DNA of 64,000 nt from a virus. Lineage: Duplodnaviria; Caudoviricetes. The position numbers and the translations under genes were made by a program. Numbering within the stretch: position 1 is the first letter of the stretch; each line of letters starts with the position of its first letter. The stretch spans positions 81,488-145,487 of IMG/VR virus record IMGVR_UViG_3300037067_007264. One strand, given 5' to 3'. Below, piece by piece: positions 2,694 through 63,218 of this stretch. The notes under the pieces were generated by a model, which did no database searches, was not told where the DNA came from, and saw only the letters and a list, made by a program, of their open reading frames with translations.

Positions 2694-3524
2694 AGAGAAG
2701 ATTGGTCAAAAGAGGATTAGCTACAGGACTGTCAATTCAAGTTCAAGTCCTCTATTCGAGTCATATGCTGCAATTTTCCCAACCAAGACCGTCAATCAAC
2801 TCTAGGGCTGCCTTTGCATCCCGAACTTGCTTCACCGTTGGAGTCTGTTCGCACCCGGCGGTCTCCGCCCAAGCATCCCTCCCAATGGCCATATCAGCAA
2901 AAGGTACGAGAGCATCCCTAGCCGCCAACAGAGCACGCTCGGTAGTGCGAAGGGAGGTGATCCTTCTTGGATCTACTGGCTTTGGTTTTTTGGAGAACAT
3001 GGGTTCTTCCACCCCTCCTGTTGCCGTATTTGCATGATCTGATTTATTGAAAGGTTGGTGCTATCCCACCCTTGTTCCTGGCAGTACTTCTGGACGAAAG
3101 CATGACGGCCTTCGATCGTAGCCTTCATATCGTCAGCATCAGCCTGAGTTCCGGTAGTGATTGCAACTCCAAGGTTTCCTGGTAGCTTCACAACTGGCAT
3201 TTTTAGTTCCTCTTGTTGGTAAACGTCCCATCGTTTCCACTACCAAGGATCCCACCTCTGCTGAACTTTGCATTCCGAGGGGGTCCTTCAATATTCCCAT
3301 TCTCGATGGAACCCTGAACAATGAGCTCAGCTGCCTCAATCATTGAGAGACCGGTGGCCCAAGGTGGGTTAGCATTGTCGACACACCACTCTTGAAGCTT
3401 GAACTGGTTTTCATCACTCATGCGGCTAGCTTTGAAGTGAGGTACCCGCATGGGAAGCTTCTTACCTGTGAGGGACTCGAGAGCTTCCTTGAAATAATTG
3501 ATAGGAGAGAGTCCCCTTCGCTTG

Positions 3525-4889: not shown

Positions 4890-5653
4890 TGGGAGCACCC
4901 TACACCGAGTGTGACAGTTTTGTCACCAAAAGATTGACAATCTGGTGTACACTGCTTCATGCCATTGACTGTCCGAAATCTTCTTGACCACCCAGAACGT
5001 AGGTCTGAACTATACCCTGAGCCGGATAATTGTGTTGAGTGTGGGCAACCGATCTCGGAGTTTGTCACTGGGCATGAGCCGATTGGCAAGAAACCCGCTC
5101 AAGAGCCAGAGGAAACGTGATCTACCTCATCCCGCCGGTACCGACTCAAGAACCCAAGTGGCGTATTCGAGCTGAATCAACCAAGCTATCCAGTTCCTTT
5201 ATCCTCCGTGATGAAGTAGCGAAGATTTTTTCTGATAATGGGGTTCCAGTCATCCCATTAGGTAAGCCCCCAAGTGGTGCCACCGAAGAAGCTTTGGTTG
5301 CTGCCATGGACGAGATAGACACTCGTCACATTAAACTGAGTAGACGGTTACTCAGCGAGCTGAGGTTCGAACTCCTAGGGGCTAGGTCTAGGATCCAATG
5401 GCCCCAAGTAATAATAGACTGCCGCCGAGCAGCAGTAGATGTTGTAGAGGCTCAGAATCGATACGAAGAGTTGCATGAGAAGGTAATGGAGTACGCCATG
5501 GATCAGTTAGGTCTCAATGAGCTAACCTGTATCCTAGTTGAAGGCCTTCACGAGTGTATCAAGAGCCCAACCCGGCAGTGCTTGTACGATGATGAAGAGG
5601 ATCCTAGCCACGATGATTGCCTCGTGTGCGGAGAGCCTGAAGAGCGGAAATGA

Positions 5654-8296: not shown

Positions 8297-9213
8297 AGTC
8301 TCGGGGTGGATATAAATGAAAACCTCAAGAAGCAACGTGAGCTTACCGCTAAACTTCTAGCTGAGCCTCTCGAAGGTGAGCCTCTCGAGTTGCTTGAGCT
8401 TGGTATTGAACTGGCTAGGTTAGTGACAACAGCAGATCAACACCTATCCGATGATGGAGACTACCCTGAAGCTTGGCTTAGTAAACCTAAACCACCAGCC
8501 CCCGATCCTTGGTGTGGGGGATCGGAGACGTAATGAAAGAGACGAGTGACTGCTAATGGAAGACAAAGAAGTAGAGATCTCATTAGATAGAAAAACTGAG
8601 ATCATCTTTAGGATGATGCAGAAGTGGGCACCTCGCTCGAGTGAAACGCTGGCCCAGGTGTTCCCAAATTGTGATTGGCCTGAGTCGATCCATAATTGCA
8701 ACCTACAAGAGTTCCTAACCACGGTCTTCAATGATAACCCGAAGGCGATCACTGAGAGAGGCATACCTTCAGCCGAAGCCTATGTGGGGGAGGTTAGGAA
8801 ACTTTTCTAGGGAATACCCTAGGAGAACCTTAGGCTGGCTATTGACATTCCTCATAAATTATGGTGCTATACGAGATTAGTAACCACTCGGATAGCTATG
8901 GGCGCTAGGTCAAAGAACACTTATAGTGTTAGGGCAACAGTTCAGGGTCAGTTTCGAGATCGGCAGATTGGGGTCCTTGGCGGGAAACCCTAAACGAAGC
9001 TGTCTTATCTTTTGTAGAGAAGTTGAAGAAACAAGGACAGGCAGATCGAATCCTGAAGTATCCAATGGTAGCTCGCAGGGCAACTATTGAGGATCAAATA
9101 GGGCATAACCTACCAATAGATGGTAACGGGGTTATTTACCGGCGCGATCTAAGTTTACAAGCTGGAATCTCATCCTTGCTCATAGCCCAAGGGTTGAACC
9201 TACCGGAGAATCA

Positions 9214-54308: not shown

Positions 54309-54748
54309 ATCTAGCTGACCTGATTATCTCTTGACTTTACCTACCTCAAGGGACTAAGGTTGACTCCTGGCATTGCTTCTTATCCAAGGGCTTTGACTCA
54401 AAAGAAGTTGACTTTCACTCAGGTTAGGGTTCATCATCTTGAAGGAGTACTTGACCCATAGGCCAACTACTCCTAAATCAGGACTCAAGTTCTTGATTTA
54501 ACTGGTCTCATTCTTTCGACCAAAAGCGAGGATCACGATCACTCGCTCAAGCCTCCGGCTAGGAGGGCCTCTCTTGAGGCAAAGAGTTATCCAGGAGTCT
54601 ACGACCTGGGTCGGGATTTCAATGCGGTCTCGGAGGGCAAAAGAGGTAGTCGGTGAGCCAATGGGTTCCGATTCGGCAGGCAGTCTGACCCATCAAGAAA
54701 CGTGTTGTTGGACCTCAGGCTGCCCTATCTCGCTTTTAAGGAATCCAC

Positions 54749-56327: not shown

Positions 56328-59300
56328 CCTTCAAGTACCACCTACTCTCTCATCTGTTGAATCCGACGCCAATAACCTATCTGTCACACCGACATAGGTA
56401 TCCTTCAAACCCCATCTACTCTCTCATCTGTTGAATCTGGTCGACTCGCCGACGCAGGGCTCGCCAACATAAGCCTTCAAGTACCACCAACTCTCTCACC
56501 TGTTGAATCACATCTTCGGGCGGCCAGTCCTGCTCAGCAGAATTCCTTCAAGTACCACCAACTCACTCATCTGTTGAATCCGGTGAAAGCACTTCTGGAT
56601 GACTCATTCATTGGGACCTTCAAGTACCACCAACTCACTCATCTATTGAATCGGTCCATTTGCAGACGCAACAGAGCGACAGTTAGGTCCTTCAAATACC
56701 ACCAACTCACTCATCTGTTGAATCAAAGCCTCCTAGAACGTGAGAACTGACGATTGCTCAATCCTTCAAAACCCACCAACTCTCCCATCTATTGAATCTA
56801 AGGGGCCGGATTTGTGTTCGTCATACCAATATTACCCTTCAAGTACCACCAACTCACTCATCTGTTGAATCCCACTCGGCTCTTCGAGAGGATGCTGAAC
56901 GGACTGGCATCCTTCAAACCCCACCAACTCTCACATCTGTTGAATCCCGATCTGAACGCTGCCGCTCCCGACCGACACTTTGCCAACATCCTTCAAACCC
57001 CACCAACTCTCACATCTGTTGAATCAACCCCGTGGATGACCCTGAGAAGCTCCATGTAAAGTGCCTTCAAGTACCACCAACTCTTTCATCTGTTGAATCA
57101 GGTCGATCACTTCGATCAGGACCATCTTGGCGAACCTTCAAGTACCACCAACTCTCTCATCTGTTGAATCCGTGAAGGACACCTGGATAGATCGCAACGG
57201 CGTCGAGCTCCTTCAAACCCCACCAACTCTCTCATCTGTTGAATTACGACAAGGATCTTGAAGTTACCTTATCGGCATTGCAACCTTCAAAACCCACCTA
57301 CTCACCCAGCTGTTGAATCAGGTCCTTTTCCGGGGGCATGACCTTGCTACACCGCCTTCAAAACCCACCTAACCCCTCATCTGTTGAATCAGACCAAGAC
57401 CAAGAAAGTTGATGACGCCGGCACGCCTTCAAGTACCACCTACTCTCTCATCTGTTGAATCTCTACAAGCTGCTCCACTCGGATTCCAAACAACCCAACC
57501 TTCAAACCCCACCAACTCTCTCATCTGTTGAATCCGGAGGGCTTCCTAGGTTTGGTGTGATTGATGCCAGTCCTTCAAAACCCACCAACTCACTCATCTG
57601 TTGAATCCGCGCGTAACCTGGGATGTTCTCGGACCCAGGAGGATCCTTCAAAACCCACCAACTCTCTCATCTGTTGAATCTCGATACGTTCGGGAAAAGC
57701 ACGGCAAGAGCTTCTGGCCTTCAAACCCCACCAACTCTCACATCTGTTGAATCGTCGAAAGCGTGTGCTCGAGTGGCATTCTGACGCGCCTTCAAACCCC
57801 ACCAACTCTCTCATCTGTTGAATCCTGCATTCGCGCCAGAGGCCTCGGAACCAGACTACTGAGCCTTCAAACCCCACCAACTCTCTCATCTGTTGAATCT
57901 CTACAAGCAAGCTCTGAACGGTGATCCGGTAACACCTTCAACCCCCACCTACTCTCTCATCTGTTGAATCTGCGGCAACTCAGACGTGCCACCCCGAGAC
58001 ATCAGTGCCCTTCAAGTACCACCTACTCTCTCATCTGTTGAATCCTCATCTATGGTCACCCCAAGTATGATCTCGTGGTCCTTCAACCCCCACCTACTCT
58101 CTCATCTGTTGAATCGGACACAGGGACTCCTAGAATCCACCTGCCCACCCCCTTCAACCCCCACCAACTCTCATCTGTTGAATCAAACCTCGTTCATTGG
58201 GGCCGACAGGATGGTGTCAGGCTCCTTCAACCCCCACCAACTCTCTCATCTGTTGAATCCTATATGACCCTCATTGCCGATTGGATGATCCCCTAACTCC
58301 TTCAACCCCCACCAACTCTCTCATCTGTTGAATCCTAGGGGGGGTTGGGTCTCCCTCGAGGAACTCCACATCCTTCAAACCCCACCTACTCTCTCATCTG
58401 TTGAATCAAAGCAAGAGTAACTGACGAAGAGCATCACCGCAGCCTTCAAACCCCACCTACTCTCTCATCTGTTGAATCGCCATTATAACAGTTGATATTG
58501 TACCGTCGTCCAGTAACCTTCAACCCCCACCAACTCTCTCATCTGTTGAATCTAGGGCTACTTCCTGAAGCCAAGCAATAATCTGGGCCTTCAAACCCCA
58601 CCTACTCTCTCATCTGTTGAATCAAAGTACAGGTTCCGACTGCGATCAAACTAAGATTCCTTCAAACCCCACCTACTCTCTCATCTGTTGAATCGGACCC
58701 TCAGGTGTTCACGAGTTCATCCATCTCAAGCCTTCAACCCCCACCTACTCTCTCATCTGTTGAATCATCGCGGGGATCATCTGGTAGTCAGAGGAGGAGC
58801 CAGCCCTTCAACCCCCACCTACTCTCTCATCTGTTGAATCGCTATGGGCTCGTCGAAGACGAGCAACAATCTGGTTGCCTTCAAACCCCACCTACTCTCT
58901 CATCTGTTGAATCCGGACGATTGGAATCAAGAACTAAGGGCTCATCTAACCTTCAACCCCCACCTACTCTCTCATCTGTTGAATCCAAAGACCCAATTGG
59001 GCCAACCCTCACCAAGGCGAACCTTCAACCCCCACCTACTCTCTCATCTGTTGAATCTTCAGCTGTAGTGGAATGGATTGTGGAACCGACGCTCCTTCAA
59101 ACCCCACCTACTCTCTCATCTGTTGAATCGGACGAGCATCAGAACGAGCATCTAGTCTAAGGTTGCCTTCAAACCCCACCTACTCTCTCATCTGTTGAAT
59201 CAGGGGTAGTGAAGCTTATTTCGGTGGTGACCAAGGCACCTTCAAACCCCACCTACTCTCTCATCTGTTGAATCGAGAGCTTGCTCGTAGGGATCATCAA

Positions 59301-59778
59301 CCACTACGGTTTCCTTCAAACCCCACCTACTCTCTCATCTGTTGAATCAGATTGCTCCTCGATTGACCTTTGAAGAATTCTCACCTTCAAACCCCACCTA
59401 CTCTCTCATCTGTTGAATCCTGAAAGAGCGCAAGGGGCGACCTACCCAAGGTGTTCCTTCAAACCCCACCTACTCTCTCATCTGTTGAATCGGGATACGG
59501 CCGAGCGCAAGCTGAGGCTGAAGTCAAAACCTTCAAACCCCACCTACTCTCTCATCTGTTGAATCGAGGCACTCGAGAGAGCTCGTAATGCCCTTCCGGA
59601 CCTTCAAACCCCACCTACTCTCTCATCTGTTGAATCCCTATCCCCTAACCTACCCAGCCCTGATTGATTCTCCTTCAAACCCCACCTACTCTCTCATCTG
59701 TTGAATCGGTGTGACTTGAGTTGCATGGTTTTGGTACTTCCTCCTTCAAACCCCACCTACTCTCTCATCTGTTGAATC
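56328..59778 (-). CRISPR. CRISPR array, 48 repeats / 47 spacers; repeat (crRNA sense) GATTCAACAGATGAGAGAGTAGGTGGGGTTTGAAGG, 36 nt
   Basis: Counted by hand; spacers about 35-43 nt; repeats uniform near 59778 and degenerate toward 56328, so the leader is on the right and transcription is on the minus strand, as for the cas gene. Confidence 0.98.
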
Positions 59779-60005: not shown

Positions 60006-60668
60006 TCAAGCAGCCTTCTTCTCGTACTTGGCCAGTCGTTTTAGCAGGTCATTCCGTTCTTTTTTGAGGGCCTTGACTTCGTCCTCCAATTCACGGACCC
60101 TTTCTTCAGCCTCGTCAAGTTGAGTAGCAAGATTACTCTTTGGGATTCTGGGTACTTTGCTGATGAGACCATACTTCTTGCGGTAGGTGTGAATACGACC
60201 ACTAGCGGTGACCTCACTCATTGGAAACCTACGGGTTTCCATTCCCGGTTCAAGCTCCTCTTTGATGAACCTACTTCGATGACCCTCCGGTAAGCCAGCT
60301 ACTTTTGACAATACCTTGAATCCGTGGGTCTCACAGAGTTCAGGACCGAACTCTGTGAGTGCGGTCACACCGTAGCGATACCTCTTCACATCAGGGAGTG
60401 ATGTCTGATAGTAACTTAGCCAAGCATCGAAGGTGGCGCTGGGGACTGCTGACTTCTTCCAAAGGTTACTCTTTTCATAGGCTCGTAGGTAGGCTACAAG
60501 CCTCATCTCACCCTGGTCAGCATCGGTCTTCAAACCTCGGATAACATCCAGTACTTGTTCAGAGTCCGGAAAGTCTGTTGGTTTCAACTTGAGTATGGTC
60601 TTGACGATCTGGCCAGTATCACCCTTGATCTTGGAGGGGTCAATAAAGGTTACTTTTTTAGTTGGCAT
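60006..60668 (-). CDS. CRISPR-linked accessory protein (helical domain plus C-terminal coiled coil)
   Basis: Starts 9 nt after the cas stop with a GAGGT RBS; C-terminal heptads LATQLDEAEERVRELEDEVKALKKERNDLLKRL. Confidence 0.8.
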   Translation of the reverse strand: MPTKKVTFIDPSKIKGDTGQIVKTILKLKPTDFPDSEQVLDVIRGLKTDADQGEMRLVAYLRAYEKSNLWKKSAVPSATFDAWLSYYQTSLPDVKRYRYGVTALTEFGPELCETHGFKVLSKVAGLPEGHRSRFIKEELEPGMETRRFPMSEVTASGRIHTYRKKYGLISKVPRIPKSNLATQLDEAEERVRELEDEVKALKKERNDLLKRLAKYEKKAA

Positions 60669-60677
60669 CGGTTTACC

Positions 60678-62432
60678 TCATTCCGCTGCATCAGCGTCAG
60701 CATCATCATCGGGTGGATCACTTACAAGAGTAAGGTCGGTGAACTTGGTGTGTCTGTGAGTGTGCTCTGTGACTATATCGGTGAAATTCTGATCTACTTG
60801 AGCCAGGGTTTCTGGGTCATTCGCTAAAAGCAACTTGAACAGTCTCCAGGCCCTAAACAGGGTCTTCGGTGCTACGCACCCACATCCTGTTCTACACCAG
60901 ACTTCAGGAAAGCCCTCTACGGAGTGAGAGTCACATAGGGTTTTCACGCCACCGCACATAGGGCAGTTCAGAGACCCAGAGTGCTTGATCACCATGGTGC
61001 GAACACCGTGCTTCTTGCAAGCCCACGCTATCTTGTCTCGGAAGGTGCACCACGGGAATCTCCGCAATAGACGTTCTATTCTTCGATCCGGAGCATGAGG
61101 GACTGACTCCATATCGTCAATTCCGACGATAGACCCAATTGCTTTAGCATACCGAGCTATGTGAGAAGCTTGTTGCTCCATCCAGGTCTTGACCCGATCA
61201 GCCTCTTGACCCTCAACAACTGCCAAGGACAGCCGGAACCTCTTCTGTCCGTGACCCCTTCCACCCTTGCCGAGGAAAGGCAGGTGCCGCGCTCTAGCGG
61301 ATCGCATAGAATCATACTTCTGTTTGAGATGTATGAACCCAGCGGAATCTATCCCTTTCGGAAGTACCCCTCCAGCCCCGGTGTACTTTCCACGAAGGTA
61401 TCGACCTTCATTGGAGTAGACCATTGCCAGGTCGTTGAGGGCTGGGGTTACTACAAGAGCAGTACTAACCTGGGTCGGCTCGGGTCTTGGCCTCTTGAAA
61501 CCAAGCTTGAATACCCACTTACCCTCATCAAGGACCACCCGACCTTGGGTTCTCTTGTACCCATTCGTTTCCTGTAAGCACCGCTTGAGGGTAGCCCAAT
61601 CGGAACCGCCTCGAACTTGAATCCGTACGGTAAGGGGTGGAACCCGTTGGCCCTTACGAGCCCCTGCAAGCATTCGAAGGCTGAGCAGGACAATCTCTTT
61701 AGGTAGCTCTTTTGGGACATTCCGATTGCTACTTTTAAGACGGTCTCGATACTCGTCAGCCTTGATAATCTCGATACTGAAACAGTCAGCCTTGATAGGG
61801 AATCCGGTTACCTTGGGCCACGGAGGTGACTTCTCTTGGGACTCCTTTGACTCCCAATTATGATACCTATTCGCGTAATCTCGACTGGCGGTAGCCACTA
61901 TACTTGATGCCGGACGGGTTACCTTGAGGATAGGATCATCGAGACCATCGAGGTACTCACTCATCGCTTCGTTGCAGATCTTGTATGCTGCAGACTCTAA
62001 GTTTCCCTCGATTGGGTTCTGAAACTGCCGACGGTAGACAGCTTGAAGGCCCATGGTGAGTGTTCGAGATACCCCGTAGAACTGATTCTTGATAGCTGAG
62101 ACTTCCTCTTTAGAGGAGTCGGAGAATACCACTGGAAGTGTCAATGCCCCTGGCAAGTTGAACAGCGCTTCCTCGAGACCTTCGATGCTCCGAGATTTGA
62201 TAACCTCAAGAGTGGTACGACCAAGCGTGTTCCTTCCGTACTTGGCCGTCGGGCATCCATTGTACATGAATACCGAGACTTTTGGTTGCTTCTTGGGTTT
62301 TAGTCCGAGTTGATCTGCTGTCTGATGGTATTTTTCAAGCAGTTTGTAGGCTTCGGTGCTAGCCCATTCCTTGTCCTCGTCAGTGAGTTCAGGTTTTTCT
62401 TTTGGGTTTGGATCCTGTTTCTTTGCGGCCAC
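60678..62432 (-). CDS. cas12: Type V CRISPR effector, Cas12f/TnpB-like, predicted nuclease-dead
   Basis: Adjacent to the array; GRGHGQKR, RRFPWCTFRDKIAWACKKHGV and the Zn finger CPMCG...C...CG follow the Cas12f/TnpB C-terminal layout; RuvC-I LVVTPAL (D->T), RuvC-II VGIDDM (E->D), RuvC-III PKTLFRA (D->T). Confidence 0.85.
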   Translation of the reverse strand: MAAKKQDPNPKEKPELTDEDKEWASTEAYKLLEKYHQTADQLGLKPKKQPKVSVFMYNGCPTAKYGRNTLGRTTLEVIKSRSIEGLEEALFNLPGALTLPVVFSDSSKEEVSAIKNQFYGVSRTLTMGLQAVYRRQFQNPIEGNLESAAYKICNEAMSEYLDGLDDPILKVTRPASSIVATASRDYANRYHNWESKESQEKSPPWPKVTGFPIKADCFSIEIIKADEYRDRLKSSNRNVPKELPKEIVLLSLRMLAGARKGQRVPPLTVRIQVRGGSDWATLKRCLQETNGYKRTQGRVVLDEGKWVFKLGFKRPRPEPTQVSTALVVTPALNDLAMVYSNEGRYLRGKYTGAGGVLPKGIDSAGFIHLKQKYDSMRSARARHLPFLGKGGRGHGQKRFRLSLAVVEGQEADRVKTWMEQQASHIARYAKAIGSIVGIDDMESVPHAPDRRIERLLRRFPWCTFRDKIAWACKKHGVRTMVIKHSGSLNCPMCGGVKTLCDSHSVEGFPEVWCRTGCGCVAPKTLFRAWRLFKLLLANDPETLAQVDQNFTDIVTEHTHRHTKFTDLTLVSDPPDDDADADAAE

Positions 62433-62444
62433 ACATTCTCCTTA

Positions 62445-62614
62445 CCTTCCTGGCACCCACTCTAACTGACTTACGTTCGAGTAGTTGCCACTAATCGTCT
62501 ACCTAGGCTTGGTCGAGTGGGTGGGGCCGTACCTCAGTTGGTTCGGCGGTTAGCGAGTGGACGTATCCCTCAGCTTTAGGGGTGAACCCTGTCGTGACAG
62601 GTTGAAGGTCCCCT
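62445..62614 (-). ncRNA. Candidate tracrRNA (split anti-repeat) plus repeat mimic in the cas 5' leader
   Basis: Anti-repeat 1 CCTTCAACC (62608-62600); anti-repeat 2 CCCCACCCACTC (62526-62515, 11/12 to the repeat); repeat mimic AGAGTGGGTG-CCAG-GAAGG (62463-62445); promoter TTGTCA-18-TAGGTT (62650-62621). Confidence 0.65.
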
Positions 62615-63218
62615 GATAAAAACCTAGCCTTGATAGACGGTCAGTGACAACTACTCTCACTTTCAAGATCAGTTCTCTCATGTCCATACGCCTATGTCAA
62701 TCGAAAACATGGAAAAAGAAATATTAGTCGGACCGGTGTAGTGACCGGGTATGGTCGACCCAAGACTGTCCTCGAAAGACGAGAAGGCTCTCCAAGACAT
62801 GATTGACCGAGGTCAGCTACCTGGGCACACGATCGAAAATGGAAGGCTCGTGTGCCCTCGACAGGATGAATACGGACGCCGGCACCTCACTGAAGAAGAG
62901 ATGACCGCCCATCGCGAGCGGGTACTCAAGATGAAGTTTGATGAGGATTGACTTCGCCCTGGTTCTCGCGAGGATAGGTCAGGCCCGTGATGATCCCCAT
63001 CCCTGGGACTTGACCGTAGTCACGTATCGGAGGGTTCATAGCTTGAGCCAGGTACATGGCGTGACTTGCCGCCTTATTGAGAGCTACCCCAGCTTCAGGA
63101 ACCCCAGGGAACTCGTCACAAGCTCGTCTGAGGGTCGCGGCATAGGTCACAAGAGCCATGCTGACAAAAGGCCGGTCTTCTTCAGGTATCACAAAGTCGT
63201 GAGGGTTTGGCATACTGC

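What the first reader, a model, noticed from the sequence alone, without database searches (positions are those of the whole stretch)
62430..62650. The cas 5' leader folds as a natural tracr-plus-repeat (sgRNA-like) RNA whose guide position is the effector's own RBS and start codon
Seen in sequence (minus strand): TTGTCA-18-TAGGTT predicts a start at about 62614. The RNA opens with a stem AGGGG/CCCCT whose bulge exposes CCTTC, complementary to the repeat 3' end GAAGG, beside an inner hairpin CCTGTC/GACAGG. About 75 nt later CCCCACCCACTC is complementary (11/12) to repeat GAGTAGGTGGGG. Established: this two-part repeat:anti-repeat geometry is known for Cas12f and Cas12k tracrRNAs. The same transcript then continues into AGAGTGGGTG-CCAG-GAAGG, a repeat mimic that can pair perfectly with both anti-repeat parts, followed immediately by TAAGGAG (RBS) and the GTG start. 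Inference: without crRNA the leader folds into a cis sgRNA that the effector binds, hiding its own RBS (translational autorepression), and crRNA competes for the anti-repeat. Alternatively it is a relic of an omega-RNA-like single guide.
Basis: partly seen in the sequence, partly recalled or inferred. Interest (0 to 1): 0.85.

Follow-up and report, generated by a model that had tools for sequence, protein, structure and literature searches.

The report
Cas12f-like tracrRNA leader with repeat mimic
The 5' leader of a phage-borne, probably nuclease-dead Cas12f-like gene is itself the system's tracrRNA, and a conserved short copy of the CRISPR repeat sits directly on the gene's ribosome-binding site, which suggests (but does not prove) that the protein shuts off its own translation when it lacks crRNA.

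Summary
The structured RNA is real: eight distinct homologous loci share it, with 59 consensus pairs, 94.7% paired cells and 28 pairs with compensatory changes. Its two single-stranded anti-repeat segments co-vary with the local CRISPR repeats, so it is the tracrRNA. Both hexamers lie inside a 32-bp covarying closing stem. A conserved TTGACN-17-hexamer element upstream puts the start near 62665. The repeat mimic (62462-62445) is the only exact instance outside the array in the 145-kb contig. It abuts the Shine-Dalgarno sequence with identical spacing in four lineages, while the neighbouring linker is unalignable. A protein tree makes it ancestral to an eight-member clade. It is remodelled in two close relatives and absent before the effector gene in three more distant ones. 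No second DNA target of the 'guide' exists, so promoter targeting of the tracr-L/CreR kind is not supported. Translational autorepression by crRNA mimicry is the best reading, at about 40%. It is unproven, and cis pairing needs a strained pseudoknot. I rate it a new variant of known Cas autoregulation. The scan has not noted this on other DNA.

The parts
62672..62700 (-). Promoter-like element: TTGACA (62700-62695), 17 nt, weak -10-like hexamer (62677-62672). Predicted start near 62665.
   Evidence: An equivalent TTGACN-17-hexamer lies 7-11 nt before the stem alignment in 7 of 8 loci. It is below the threshold of the generic scan.
62622..62655 (-). 5' strand of the closing stem.
   Evidence: 32 pairs with 62513-62480; 19 have compensatory changes; 90.9% of cells paired.
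62578..62614 (-). Stem P2 with an internal loop exposing anti-repeat part 2 (CCTTCAA, 62608-62602) and an inner hairpin (62601-62588).
   Evidence: P2 is 100% paired with 2 compensatory pairs; the inner hairpin has 3. Part 2 changes to CCTTCAG where the local repeat ends CTGAAGG (L009, L011).
62552..62576 (-). Hairpin 3, the most conserved module.
   Evidence: 9 pairs, 100% paired. Extra copies lie before the RBS in L001 and L002 and in a dispersed element.
62526..62547 (-). Hairpin 4.
   Evidence: 7 pairs, 100% paired, 2 compensatory. L004 carries an insertion in the loop.
62515..62526 (-). Anti-repeat part 1. Single-stranded in the consensus fold and in every minimum-energy fold.
   Evidence: Complementary to the local repeat in the window, L001, L002, L009, L011 and L016, with compensatory changes in the L009/L011 and L016 types.
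62480..62513 (-). 3' strand of the closing stem.
62463..62479 (-). Linker of 17 nt, not conserved.
   Evidence: Unalignable and 14-34 nt long among the four mimic-bearing loci.
62445..62462 (-). Repeat mimic: part 1 at 62462-62454, 4-nt spacer, part 2 (GAAGG) at 62449-62445.
   Evidence: Conserved in the window, L004, L007 and L008. It makes 9 + 5 perfect pairs with the anti-repeats. It has G where the repeats have A or T opposite the anti-repeat C.
62430..62444 (-). Shine-Dalgarno TAAGGAG (62444-62438) and GTG start (62432-62430). This is the 'guide position' of the sgRNA-like fold.
   Evidence: There is 0 nt between GAAGG and the SD, and the start codon is 12 nt after GAAGG, in all four lineages.
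60678..62432 (-). Effector, 584 aa, Cas12f-like, probably nuclease-dead.
60006..60668 (-). Conserved accessory gene of about 220 aa, with no known family.
   Evidence: Present directly downstream of the effector in all loci.
56328..59778 (-). CRISPR array of about 48 repeats of 36 nt. The distal repeats are degenerate.

Best explanation
Window 62655-62480 (minus strand) encodes the tracrRNA of a phage-borne, probably nuclease-dead Cas12f-like CRISPR system. It is transcribed from a promoter at about 62700-62672 as the 5' leader of the effector mRNA. Downstream of the closing stem, a short repeat mimic (62462-62445) can pair with both anti-repeat segments. That rebuilds the stem-pseudoknot-guide layout of a Cas12f/TnpB guide RNA, with the Shine-Dalgarno sequence and GTG start where the guide would be. 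I infer that effector loaded with tracrRNA but lacking crRNA binds this module, in cis or on another mRNA copy. This would occlude the ribosome-binding site and repress translation of its own mRNA. Abundant crRNA, whose repeat pairs more strongly, would compete and relieve the repression. Shown here: the RNA structure, the tracrRNA identity, and the conservation, position and pairing potential of the mimic. Inferred: co-transcription, protein binding, translational repression and crRNA competition.
For: The structure has 59 pairs, 94.7% paired, 28 compensatory; slid controls give 31-44%. The anti-repeats co-vary with the local repeats in six loci. No terminator or promoter is predicted between the tracrRNA and the start codon. 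In every locus the RBS follows the closing stem within 8-60 nt. The mimic and its zero-distance junction to the SD are identical in layout in four lineages with about 60% protein identity, next to an unalignable linker. The tree places these lineages in both halves of a 100/100 clade. The mimic carries G opposite the anti-repeat C where the real repeats carry A or T, in the window, L007 and L008. L004 pairs T with A, and L007/L008 pair C with G, in part 2. Mimic pairing energy is a little weaker than repeat pairing energy. No other DNA target of the guide-position sequence was found. The DNA flank is the same GAAGG as in every array repeat, and one partial self-match elsewhere suggests a TTT flank. 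Nucleotides just 5' of the guide pairing with a distal 5' segment is the conserved TnpB/Cas12 guide architecture (PMC10097598).
Against: With the closing stem formed, cis pairing is a pseudoknot spanning about 32 bp with 14-17 nt linkers. The mimic has 2-4 nt between its parts where the repeat has 6. Only one covarying position directly links the mimic and an anti-repeat. The mimic is degenerate in L001 and L002 and absent before the effector gene in L009, L011 and L016, so it is not essential to the system. GAAGG next to the SD could be conserved partly as ribosome-binding sequence. Nested folds leave the SD only partly accessible even without protein.
Confidence: 0.4

Rival explanations
1. 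RNA maturation or assembly role. The mimic is a cis placeholder that pre-organises the two anti-repeats, protects them, or directs a nuclease cut separating the tracrRNA from the mRNA. It would not primarily control translation. The long closing stem would be the processing site, for example for host RNase III.
For: The tracrRNA sits in the mRNA leader in all lineages. A 32-bp duplex flanks it. The mimic pairs perfectly but less strongly than the repeat, as an exchangeable placeholder would.
Against: Lineages without the mimic (L009, L011, L016) keep the same tracrRNA and closing stem, so maturation does not need it. This role does not explain the invariant zero-distance junction to the SD.
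Confidence: 0.2
2. DNA-level autorepression of the tracr-L/CreR kind. The leader acts as a natural single guide that brings the dead effector to DNA and blocks transcription. The target would be its own gene start or a partially matching promoter site.
For: The effector probably cannot cut, so self-binding would be harmless. Autorepression by non-canonical guides is established for Cas9 (tracr-L) and for Cas12a and type I (CreR). Natural single guides are used by dCas12f.
Against: No partial match beyond chance was found in the promoter region, within 3 kb, or with up to 4 mismatches in 18 nt across the 145-kb contig and the loci. The only perfect target is the locus itself. Its 5' flank is the repeat end GAAGG, so if that flank were permissive every array spacer would self-target. 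One partial match suggests a TTT flank (tentative).
Confidence: 0.1
3. Non-functional relic. The mimic is a decayed repeat or a remnant of an ancestral single guide that happens to lie before the gene.
For: The mimic is shortened relative to the repeat, degenerate in L001 and L002, and missing in three lineages.
Against: It is retained exactly in four lineages separated by about 0.7-0.8 substitutions per protein site, while the adjacent linker is unalignable. It differs from the repeat at the one position that makes it a perfect complement of the anti-repeat. TnpB guide RNAs lie at the 3' end of the gene, not the 5' end (my own knowledge).
Confidence: 0.08

Closest known systems
Cas12f (type V-F) tracrRNA:crRNA and TnpB omega-RNA scaffold
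   Same: The effector fold is closest to Cas12f. The repeat's last 7 nt pair with a 5'-proximal segment, like the pseudoknot, and an upstream repeat segment pairs with a second anti-repeat. This is the guide-pseudoknot-stem layout conserved in TnpB and Cas12 guides (PMC10097598).
   Different: The tracrRNA is the 5' leader of the effector mRNA and is closed by a 32-bp stem formed by its own 5' end and sequence 3' of the anti-repeat. The effector lacks the RuvC-I aspartate. No Rfam family matches.
tracr-L, the natural single guide that autoregulates Cas9 (Workman 2021; bioRxiv 10.1101/2020.05.21.102756)
   Same: The tracrRNA is joined in one transcript to a repeat-like sequence. The proposed purpose is autorepression of the effector.
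   Different: tracr-L pairs 11 bp with the cas9 promoter DNA (as summarised in the paper read). Here no promoter target exists, and the 'guide' is the effector's own SD and start codon on the RNA.
CreR/CreA degenerate mini-CRISPRs (bioRxiv 10.1101/2023.03.10.532045) and standalone repeat-like elements upstream of cas12a (10.1101/2023.03.03.530964)
   Same: A repeat-like element sits upstream of the effector gene. Competition between canonical crRNA and the regulatory RNA sets Cas levels.
   Different: CreR acts through partial complementarity to the cas promoter next to a PAM. Here only the tracr-pairing 3' half of the repeat is kept, it sits on the RBS, and no promoter match was found.
Autogenous translational repression by RNA mimicry (ribosomal protein operons, T4 gp32/RegA, MS2 coat protein; my own knowledge)
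   Same: The mRNA leader copies the protein's normal RNA ligand at or next to the SD, so surplus protein would block its own translation.
   Different: The ligand here would be a two-RNA module (tracrRNA plus repeat mimic) recognised by a CRISPR effector. Binding has not been shown.
dCas12f-sigmaE RNA-guided transcription systems (PMC13472631)
   Same: A nuclease-dead Cas12f relative. dCas12f structures are among the fold matches. These systems use a single RNA combining scaffold and guide.
   Different: Those systems have no tracrRNA-like species and pair with a sigma factor. This one has a tracrRNA, a 48-repeat array, a different 220-aa partner gene and a phage context.

Membership tests
tracrRNA (type V, two anti-repeat segments) | Encoded next to the effector gene and the array | tested here: met
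   Directly upstream of the effector in all nine lineages with DNA except L013.
tracrRNA (type V, two anti-repeat segments) | Anti-repeat complementary to the CRISPR repeat and co-varying with it | tested here: met
   11-12 pairs plus 7 pairs in the window, L001, L002, L009 and L011; the partial repeat in L016 also fits. Compensatory changes occur in both segments.
tracrRNA (type V, two anti-repeat segments) | Conserved secondary structure | tested here: met
   94.7% paired and 28 compensatory pairs against 31-44% in slid controls.
tracrRNA (type V, two anti-repeat segments) | Expressed and required for crRNA loading | not testable with these tools
Cas12f (type V-F effector) | TnpB-like RuvC plus zinc-finger fold, 400-700 aa | tested here: met
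   PDB sequence match to Cas12f1 at E 1.3e-8. Top Foldseek matches are AsCas12f, SpCas12f1 and OsCas12f, from a model of only moderate quality, pLDDT 66.6.
Cas12f (type V-F effector) | Intact RuvC D-E-D catalytic triad | tested here: not met
   The RuvC-I column is T/I/M. The RuvC-II position is Asp where Cas12f1 has Glu. The RuvC-III column is Thr in the window protein. RuvC-I and RuvC-III are placed by motif alignment, so this is an inference.
tracr-L type natural single guide | tracrRNA and a repeat-like segment in one transcript | tested here: inconclusive
   They are contiguous with no predicted terminator or promoter between them. The transcript itself was not observed.
tracr-L type natural single guide | Short guide complementary to the cas promoter beside a PAM | tested here: not met
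CreR/CreA mini-CRISPR | Degenerate repeat plus a spacer-like segment partly matching the cas promoter | tested here: not met
   A repeat-like 3' half is present, but there is no promoter match.
Autogenous translational operator by mimicry | The leader element copies the protein's RNA ligand and abuts the SD or start codon | tested here: met
   The mimic ends 0 nt before the SD, and the start codon is 12 nt downstream, in four lineages.
Autogenous translational operator by mimicry | The protein binds the operator and lowers translation | not testable with these tools
   Needs binding and reporter assays.
dCas12f-sigmaE system | Adjacent ECF sigma factor gene and a single guide without an array | tested here: not met
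   Neighbouring ORFs have no sigma-factor Pfam match. A 48-repeat array and a tracrRNA are present.

The most novel reading that the evidence does not exclude
The dead effector:tracrRNA complex is a post-transcriptional regulator that recognises any mRNA tagged with the tracr-pairing half of the repeat in its leader. The tagged mRNAs would be its own in the window clade, and two further genes in L009 that carry solo repeat halves at 3388 and 4497 just upstream of their start codons. CRISPR repeat fragments would then act as portable translational operators, a phage regulon read out by a Cas protein on RNA rather than DNA.
Probability: 0.15. Interest if true: 0.85.

Novelty: new variant of a known kind. 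Interest (0 to 1): 0.7.

Why it matters
Cas autoregulation by non-canonical guides is known only as DNA binding at cas promoters (tracr-L, CreR). An effector mRNA whose leader is the tracrRNA, with a crRNA-repeat mimic on its own ribosome-binding site, would be the first translational, mimicry-based feedback that measures free effector against crRNA supply. It also defines, with covariation support, the guide RNA scaffold of an undescribed phage-borne dead Cas12f-like family. Anyone wishing to reconstitute that family needs this scaffold. The hypothesis can be tested with one reporter construct and compensatory mutations at known coordinates.

Tried and rejected
- Rfam: no family matches the leader or the dispersed hairpin element.
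- Trans targets of the guide-position sequence: none within 3 kb, in the promoter region (best 9-11 of 16, equal to shuffled guides), or contig-wide with up to 4 mismatches.
- Protospacers for PAM inference: no match of 77 spacers to the contig or the loci beyond 12-18 nt chance hits, and none in 50,697 phage records.
- More loci: genome contigs gave none by protein or DNA pattern. Metagenome contigs and viral contigs each gave one, the same phage lineage. Two homologues (P0003, P0006) have no retrievable DNA.
- Literature: two full-text searches for a tracrRNA in a cas 5' UTR, or translational repression of a cas mRNA by a repeat-like element, returned nothing.
It was rerun from coordinates.
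Full report
**Context.** The window is the last 64 kb of a single 145,487-bp contig. On the minus strand lie, in order:
- a 584-aa ORF (62432-60678);
- a 220-aa ORF (60668-60006);
- a CRISPR array of about 48 repeats of 36 nt (59778-56328), whose distal repeats are degenerate, so the array is read in the same direction.

The 584-aa protein is a distant TnpB relative (NCBIfam E 1e-9). Its closest solved relative by sequence is Cas12f1 (E 1.3e-8). By fold it is closest to AsCas12f, SpCas12f1 and OsCas12f, with natural dCas12f also listed. The model is only moderate, pLDDT 66.6.

In alignments the RuvC-I aspartate column holds T/I/M. The RuvC-II position is Asp where Cas12f1 has Glu. The RuvC-III column is Thr in the window protein. 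I therefore regard the effector as probably nuclease-dead.

Relatives lie on contigs of up to 473 kb filled with small unknown ORFs. One is an IMG/VR viral contig, and a window ORF matches tail-protein families. A large phage is the likely carrier.

**The observation.** The mimic makes 9 perfect pairs with anti-repeat part 1 and 5 with part 2. A two-part pattern search of both strands of the 145-kb contig finds only this exact instance outside the array. I estimate 0.03 expected by chance.

**What the RNA is.** Ten homologues of 51-76% identity, and later one of 38%, gave DNA for nine lineages. All except the 28%-identity L013 have an intergenic leader with the same element. An alignment of eight distinct leaders gives a consensus fold of 59 pairs. 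Of these cells 94.7% are paired and 28 pairs show compensatory changes. When the partners are slid, only 31-44% are paired and 1-6 pairs are compensatory. The elements are:
- a 32-bp closing stem (62655-62622 with 62513-62480);
- stem P2, with an internal loop exposing CCTTCAA, plus an inner hairpin;
- two further hairpins;
- a single-stranded 12-mer (62526-62515).

Minimum-energy folds of each full leader recover this structure and leave both anti-repeat segments unpaired.

The two segments follow the local repeats. L009 and L011 have a different part 1 that matches their own repeats, and part 2 reads CCTTCAG where their repeats end CTGAAGG. L016 has yet another part 1, which matches the partial first repeat at its contig end. 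This RNA is the system's tracrRNA. I put that at about 0.9.

The repeat's last 7 nt pair with a 5'-proximal segment. This corresponds to the guide-pseudoknot-stem layout reported as conserved in TnpB and Cas12 guide RNAs (PMC10097598).

The proposed TTGTCA and TAGGTT hexamers are part of the closing stem, which has 19 compensatory pairs. The consensus scan finds no promoter there. A TTGACN hexamer, 17 nt, and a -10-like hexamer end 7-11 nt before the stem alignment in 7 of 8 loci. In the window this is 62700-62672, with a weak -10. The RNA therefore starts near 62665 and does not open with the GGGG stem.

No terminator or promoter is predicted between the tracrRNA core and the start codon. In every lineage the RBS follows the closing stem within 8-60 nt. 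The effector is thus most simply translated from an mRNA whose leader is the tracrRNA. This is an inference.

**The mimic.**
- The motif GAGTGGGT(G/A), 2-4 nt, GAAGG, then at once TA(A/G)GGAG, with the GTG start 12 nt after GAAGG, is present in the window, L004, L007 and L008.
- The linker between the closing stem and the mimic is 14-34 nt long and unalignable.
- On a protein tree these lineages fall in both halves of a clade with 100/100 support. L001 and L002 are nested beside the window. The mimic is therefore most parsimoniously ancestral to that clade.
- L001 and L002 keep only fragments of it. Each instead carries a second copy of hairpin 3 directly before the RBS.
- L009, L011 and L016 have no mimic before the effector gene.
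- In the window, L007 and L008 the real repeats carry A or T opposite a C of anti-repeat part 1, a mismatch. The mimic carries G there, a perfect pair. The mimic is therefore tuned to the anti-repeat rather than being a plain copy of the repeat.
- In part 2, L004 pairs T with A, and L007/L008 pair C with G. This is the only covarying mimic position.
- Summed duplex energies are -24 to -26.5 kcal/mol for mimics and -27 to -31 for repeats.

**Mechanism.** The 18 nt after the mimic have no second match with up to 4 mismatches in the contig or the loci. They have nothing above shuffled controls in the promoter region. Promoter targeting of the kind shown for tracr-L and CreR is therefore not supported.

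The only DNA target is the locus itself. Its 5' flank is the same GAAGG that ends every array repeat. In L009 and L011 the sequence after the terminal repeat matches, at 15 and 14 of 18 positions, a site about 107 nt downstream inside the next gene. That site has a TTT flank. This is a single and tentative hint that the PAM is T-rich.

These points favour an RNA-level role. The invariant contact between the mimic and the SD favours translational control. I commit to autogenous translational repression by crRNA mimicry, at about 0.4.

**Caveats.**
- With the closing stem formed, cis pairing is a pseudoknot that must span about 32 bp with 14-17 nt linkers in three lineages. Pairing may occur in trans or after cleavage of the stem.
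- The mimic is 2-4 nt shorter than the repeat between its two parts.
- No transcript or binding data could be obtained.

**Comparison and novelty.** Full-text searches found tracr-L, CreR, standalone repeats upstream of cas12a, and dCas12f single guides. They found nothing describing a tracrRNA that serves as the effector's 5' leader, or a repeat mimic on a cas RBS. I class the finding as a new variant of known Cas autoregulation. It sits in a Cas12f-like family that fails the catalytic-triad criterion for Cas12f proper.

Noticed in passing
L009:3388-3407 and L009:4497-4516: Two solo copies of the tracr-pairing 3' half of the local repeat (17-18 of 20 identical) lie in the leaders of two genes upstream of the effector, on the same strand. 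The first ends 21 nt before an ATG with a GAAAGG site between them. The layout resembles the window's mimic.
   Followed up: partly
L009:8381-8398 with 8488-8505; L011:5487-5504 with 5601-5618: The sequence after the terminal repeat matches a site about 107 nt downstream inside the next gene, at 15 of 18 (L009) and 14 of 18 (L011) positions. In L009 the three mismatches are at guide positions 3, 6 and 9, which are codon third positions. The target has a TTT 5' flank. This could be a recoded self copy of a targeted gene, or a regulatory guide. It gives a tentative T-rich PAM.
   Followed up: partly
window about 54470-54600 (+); contig C1:57929-57958 (-); L002:55-84 (-): A repeated structured element (fold z-score -3.4) contains a close copy of tracrRNA hairpin 3 followed by other hairpins. 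It has no Rfam match. Hairpin 3 looks like a reusable module, and it also occurs before the effector RBS in L001 and L002.
   Followed up: partly
window 60678-62432 (-): The effector lacks the RuvC-I aspartate (T/I/M in the subfamily) and has Asp at the RuvC-II position. More distant relatives among the 188 related clusters also lack the RuvC-I aspartate (His in a VHRG-type motif) but keep the RuvC-II Glu and the RuvC-III Asp.
   Followed up: partly
window 60006-60668 (-) and the gene after the effector in every locus: A 200-230 aa gene with a C-terminal coiled coil always follows the effector. It has no Pfam, NCBIfam or informative PHROG match.
   Followed up: no
window 56328-59778: Several spacers are diverged variants of one another; the tandem-repeat finder reports periods of 146, 219, 288 and 434. 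The same target region may be represented several times, or array segments may have been duplicated. Repeat position 5 of the tracr-pairing half alternates between A and T and always faces the anti-repeat C.
   Followed up: no
L013:2909-4606: The 28%-identity relative has no upstream leader. An HTH gene ends 3 nt before it, and its repeat is unrelated. Its tracrRNA, if it has one, lies elsewhere.
   Followed up: no
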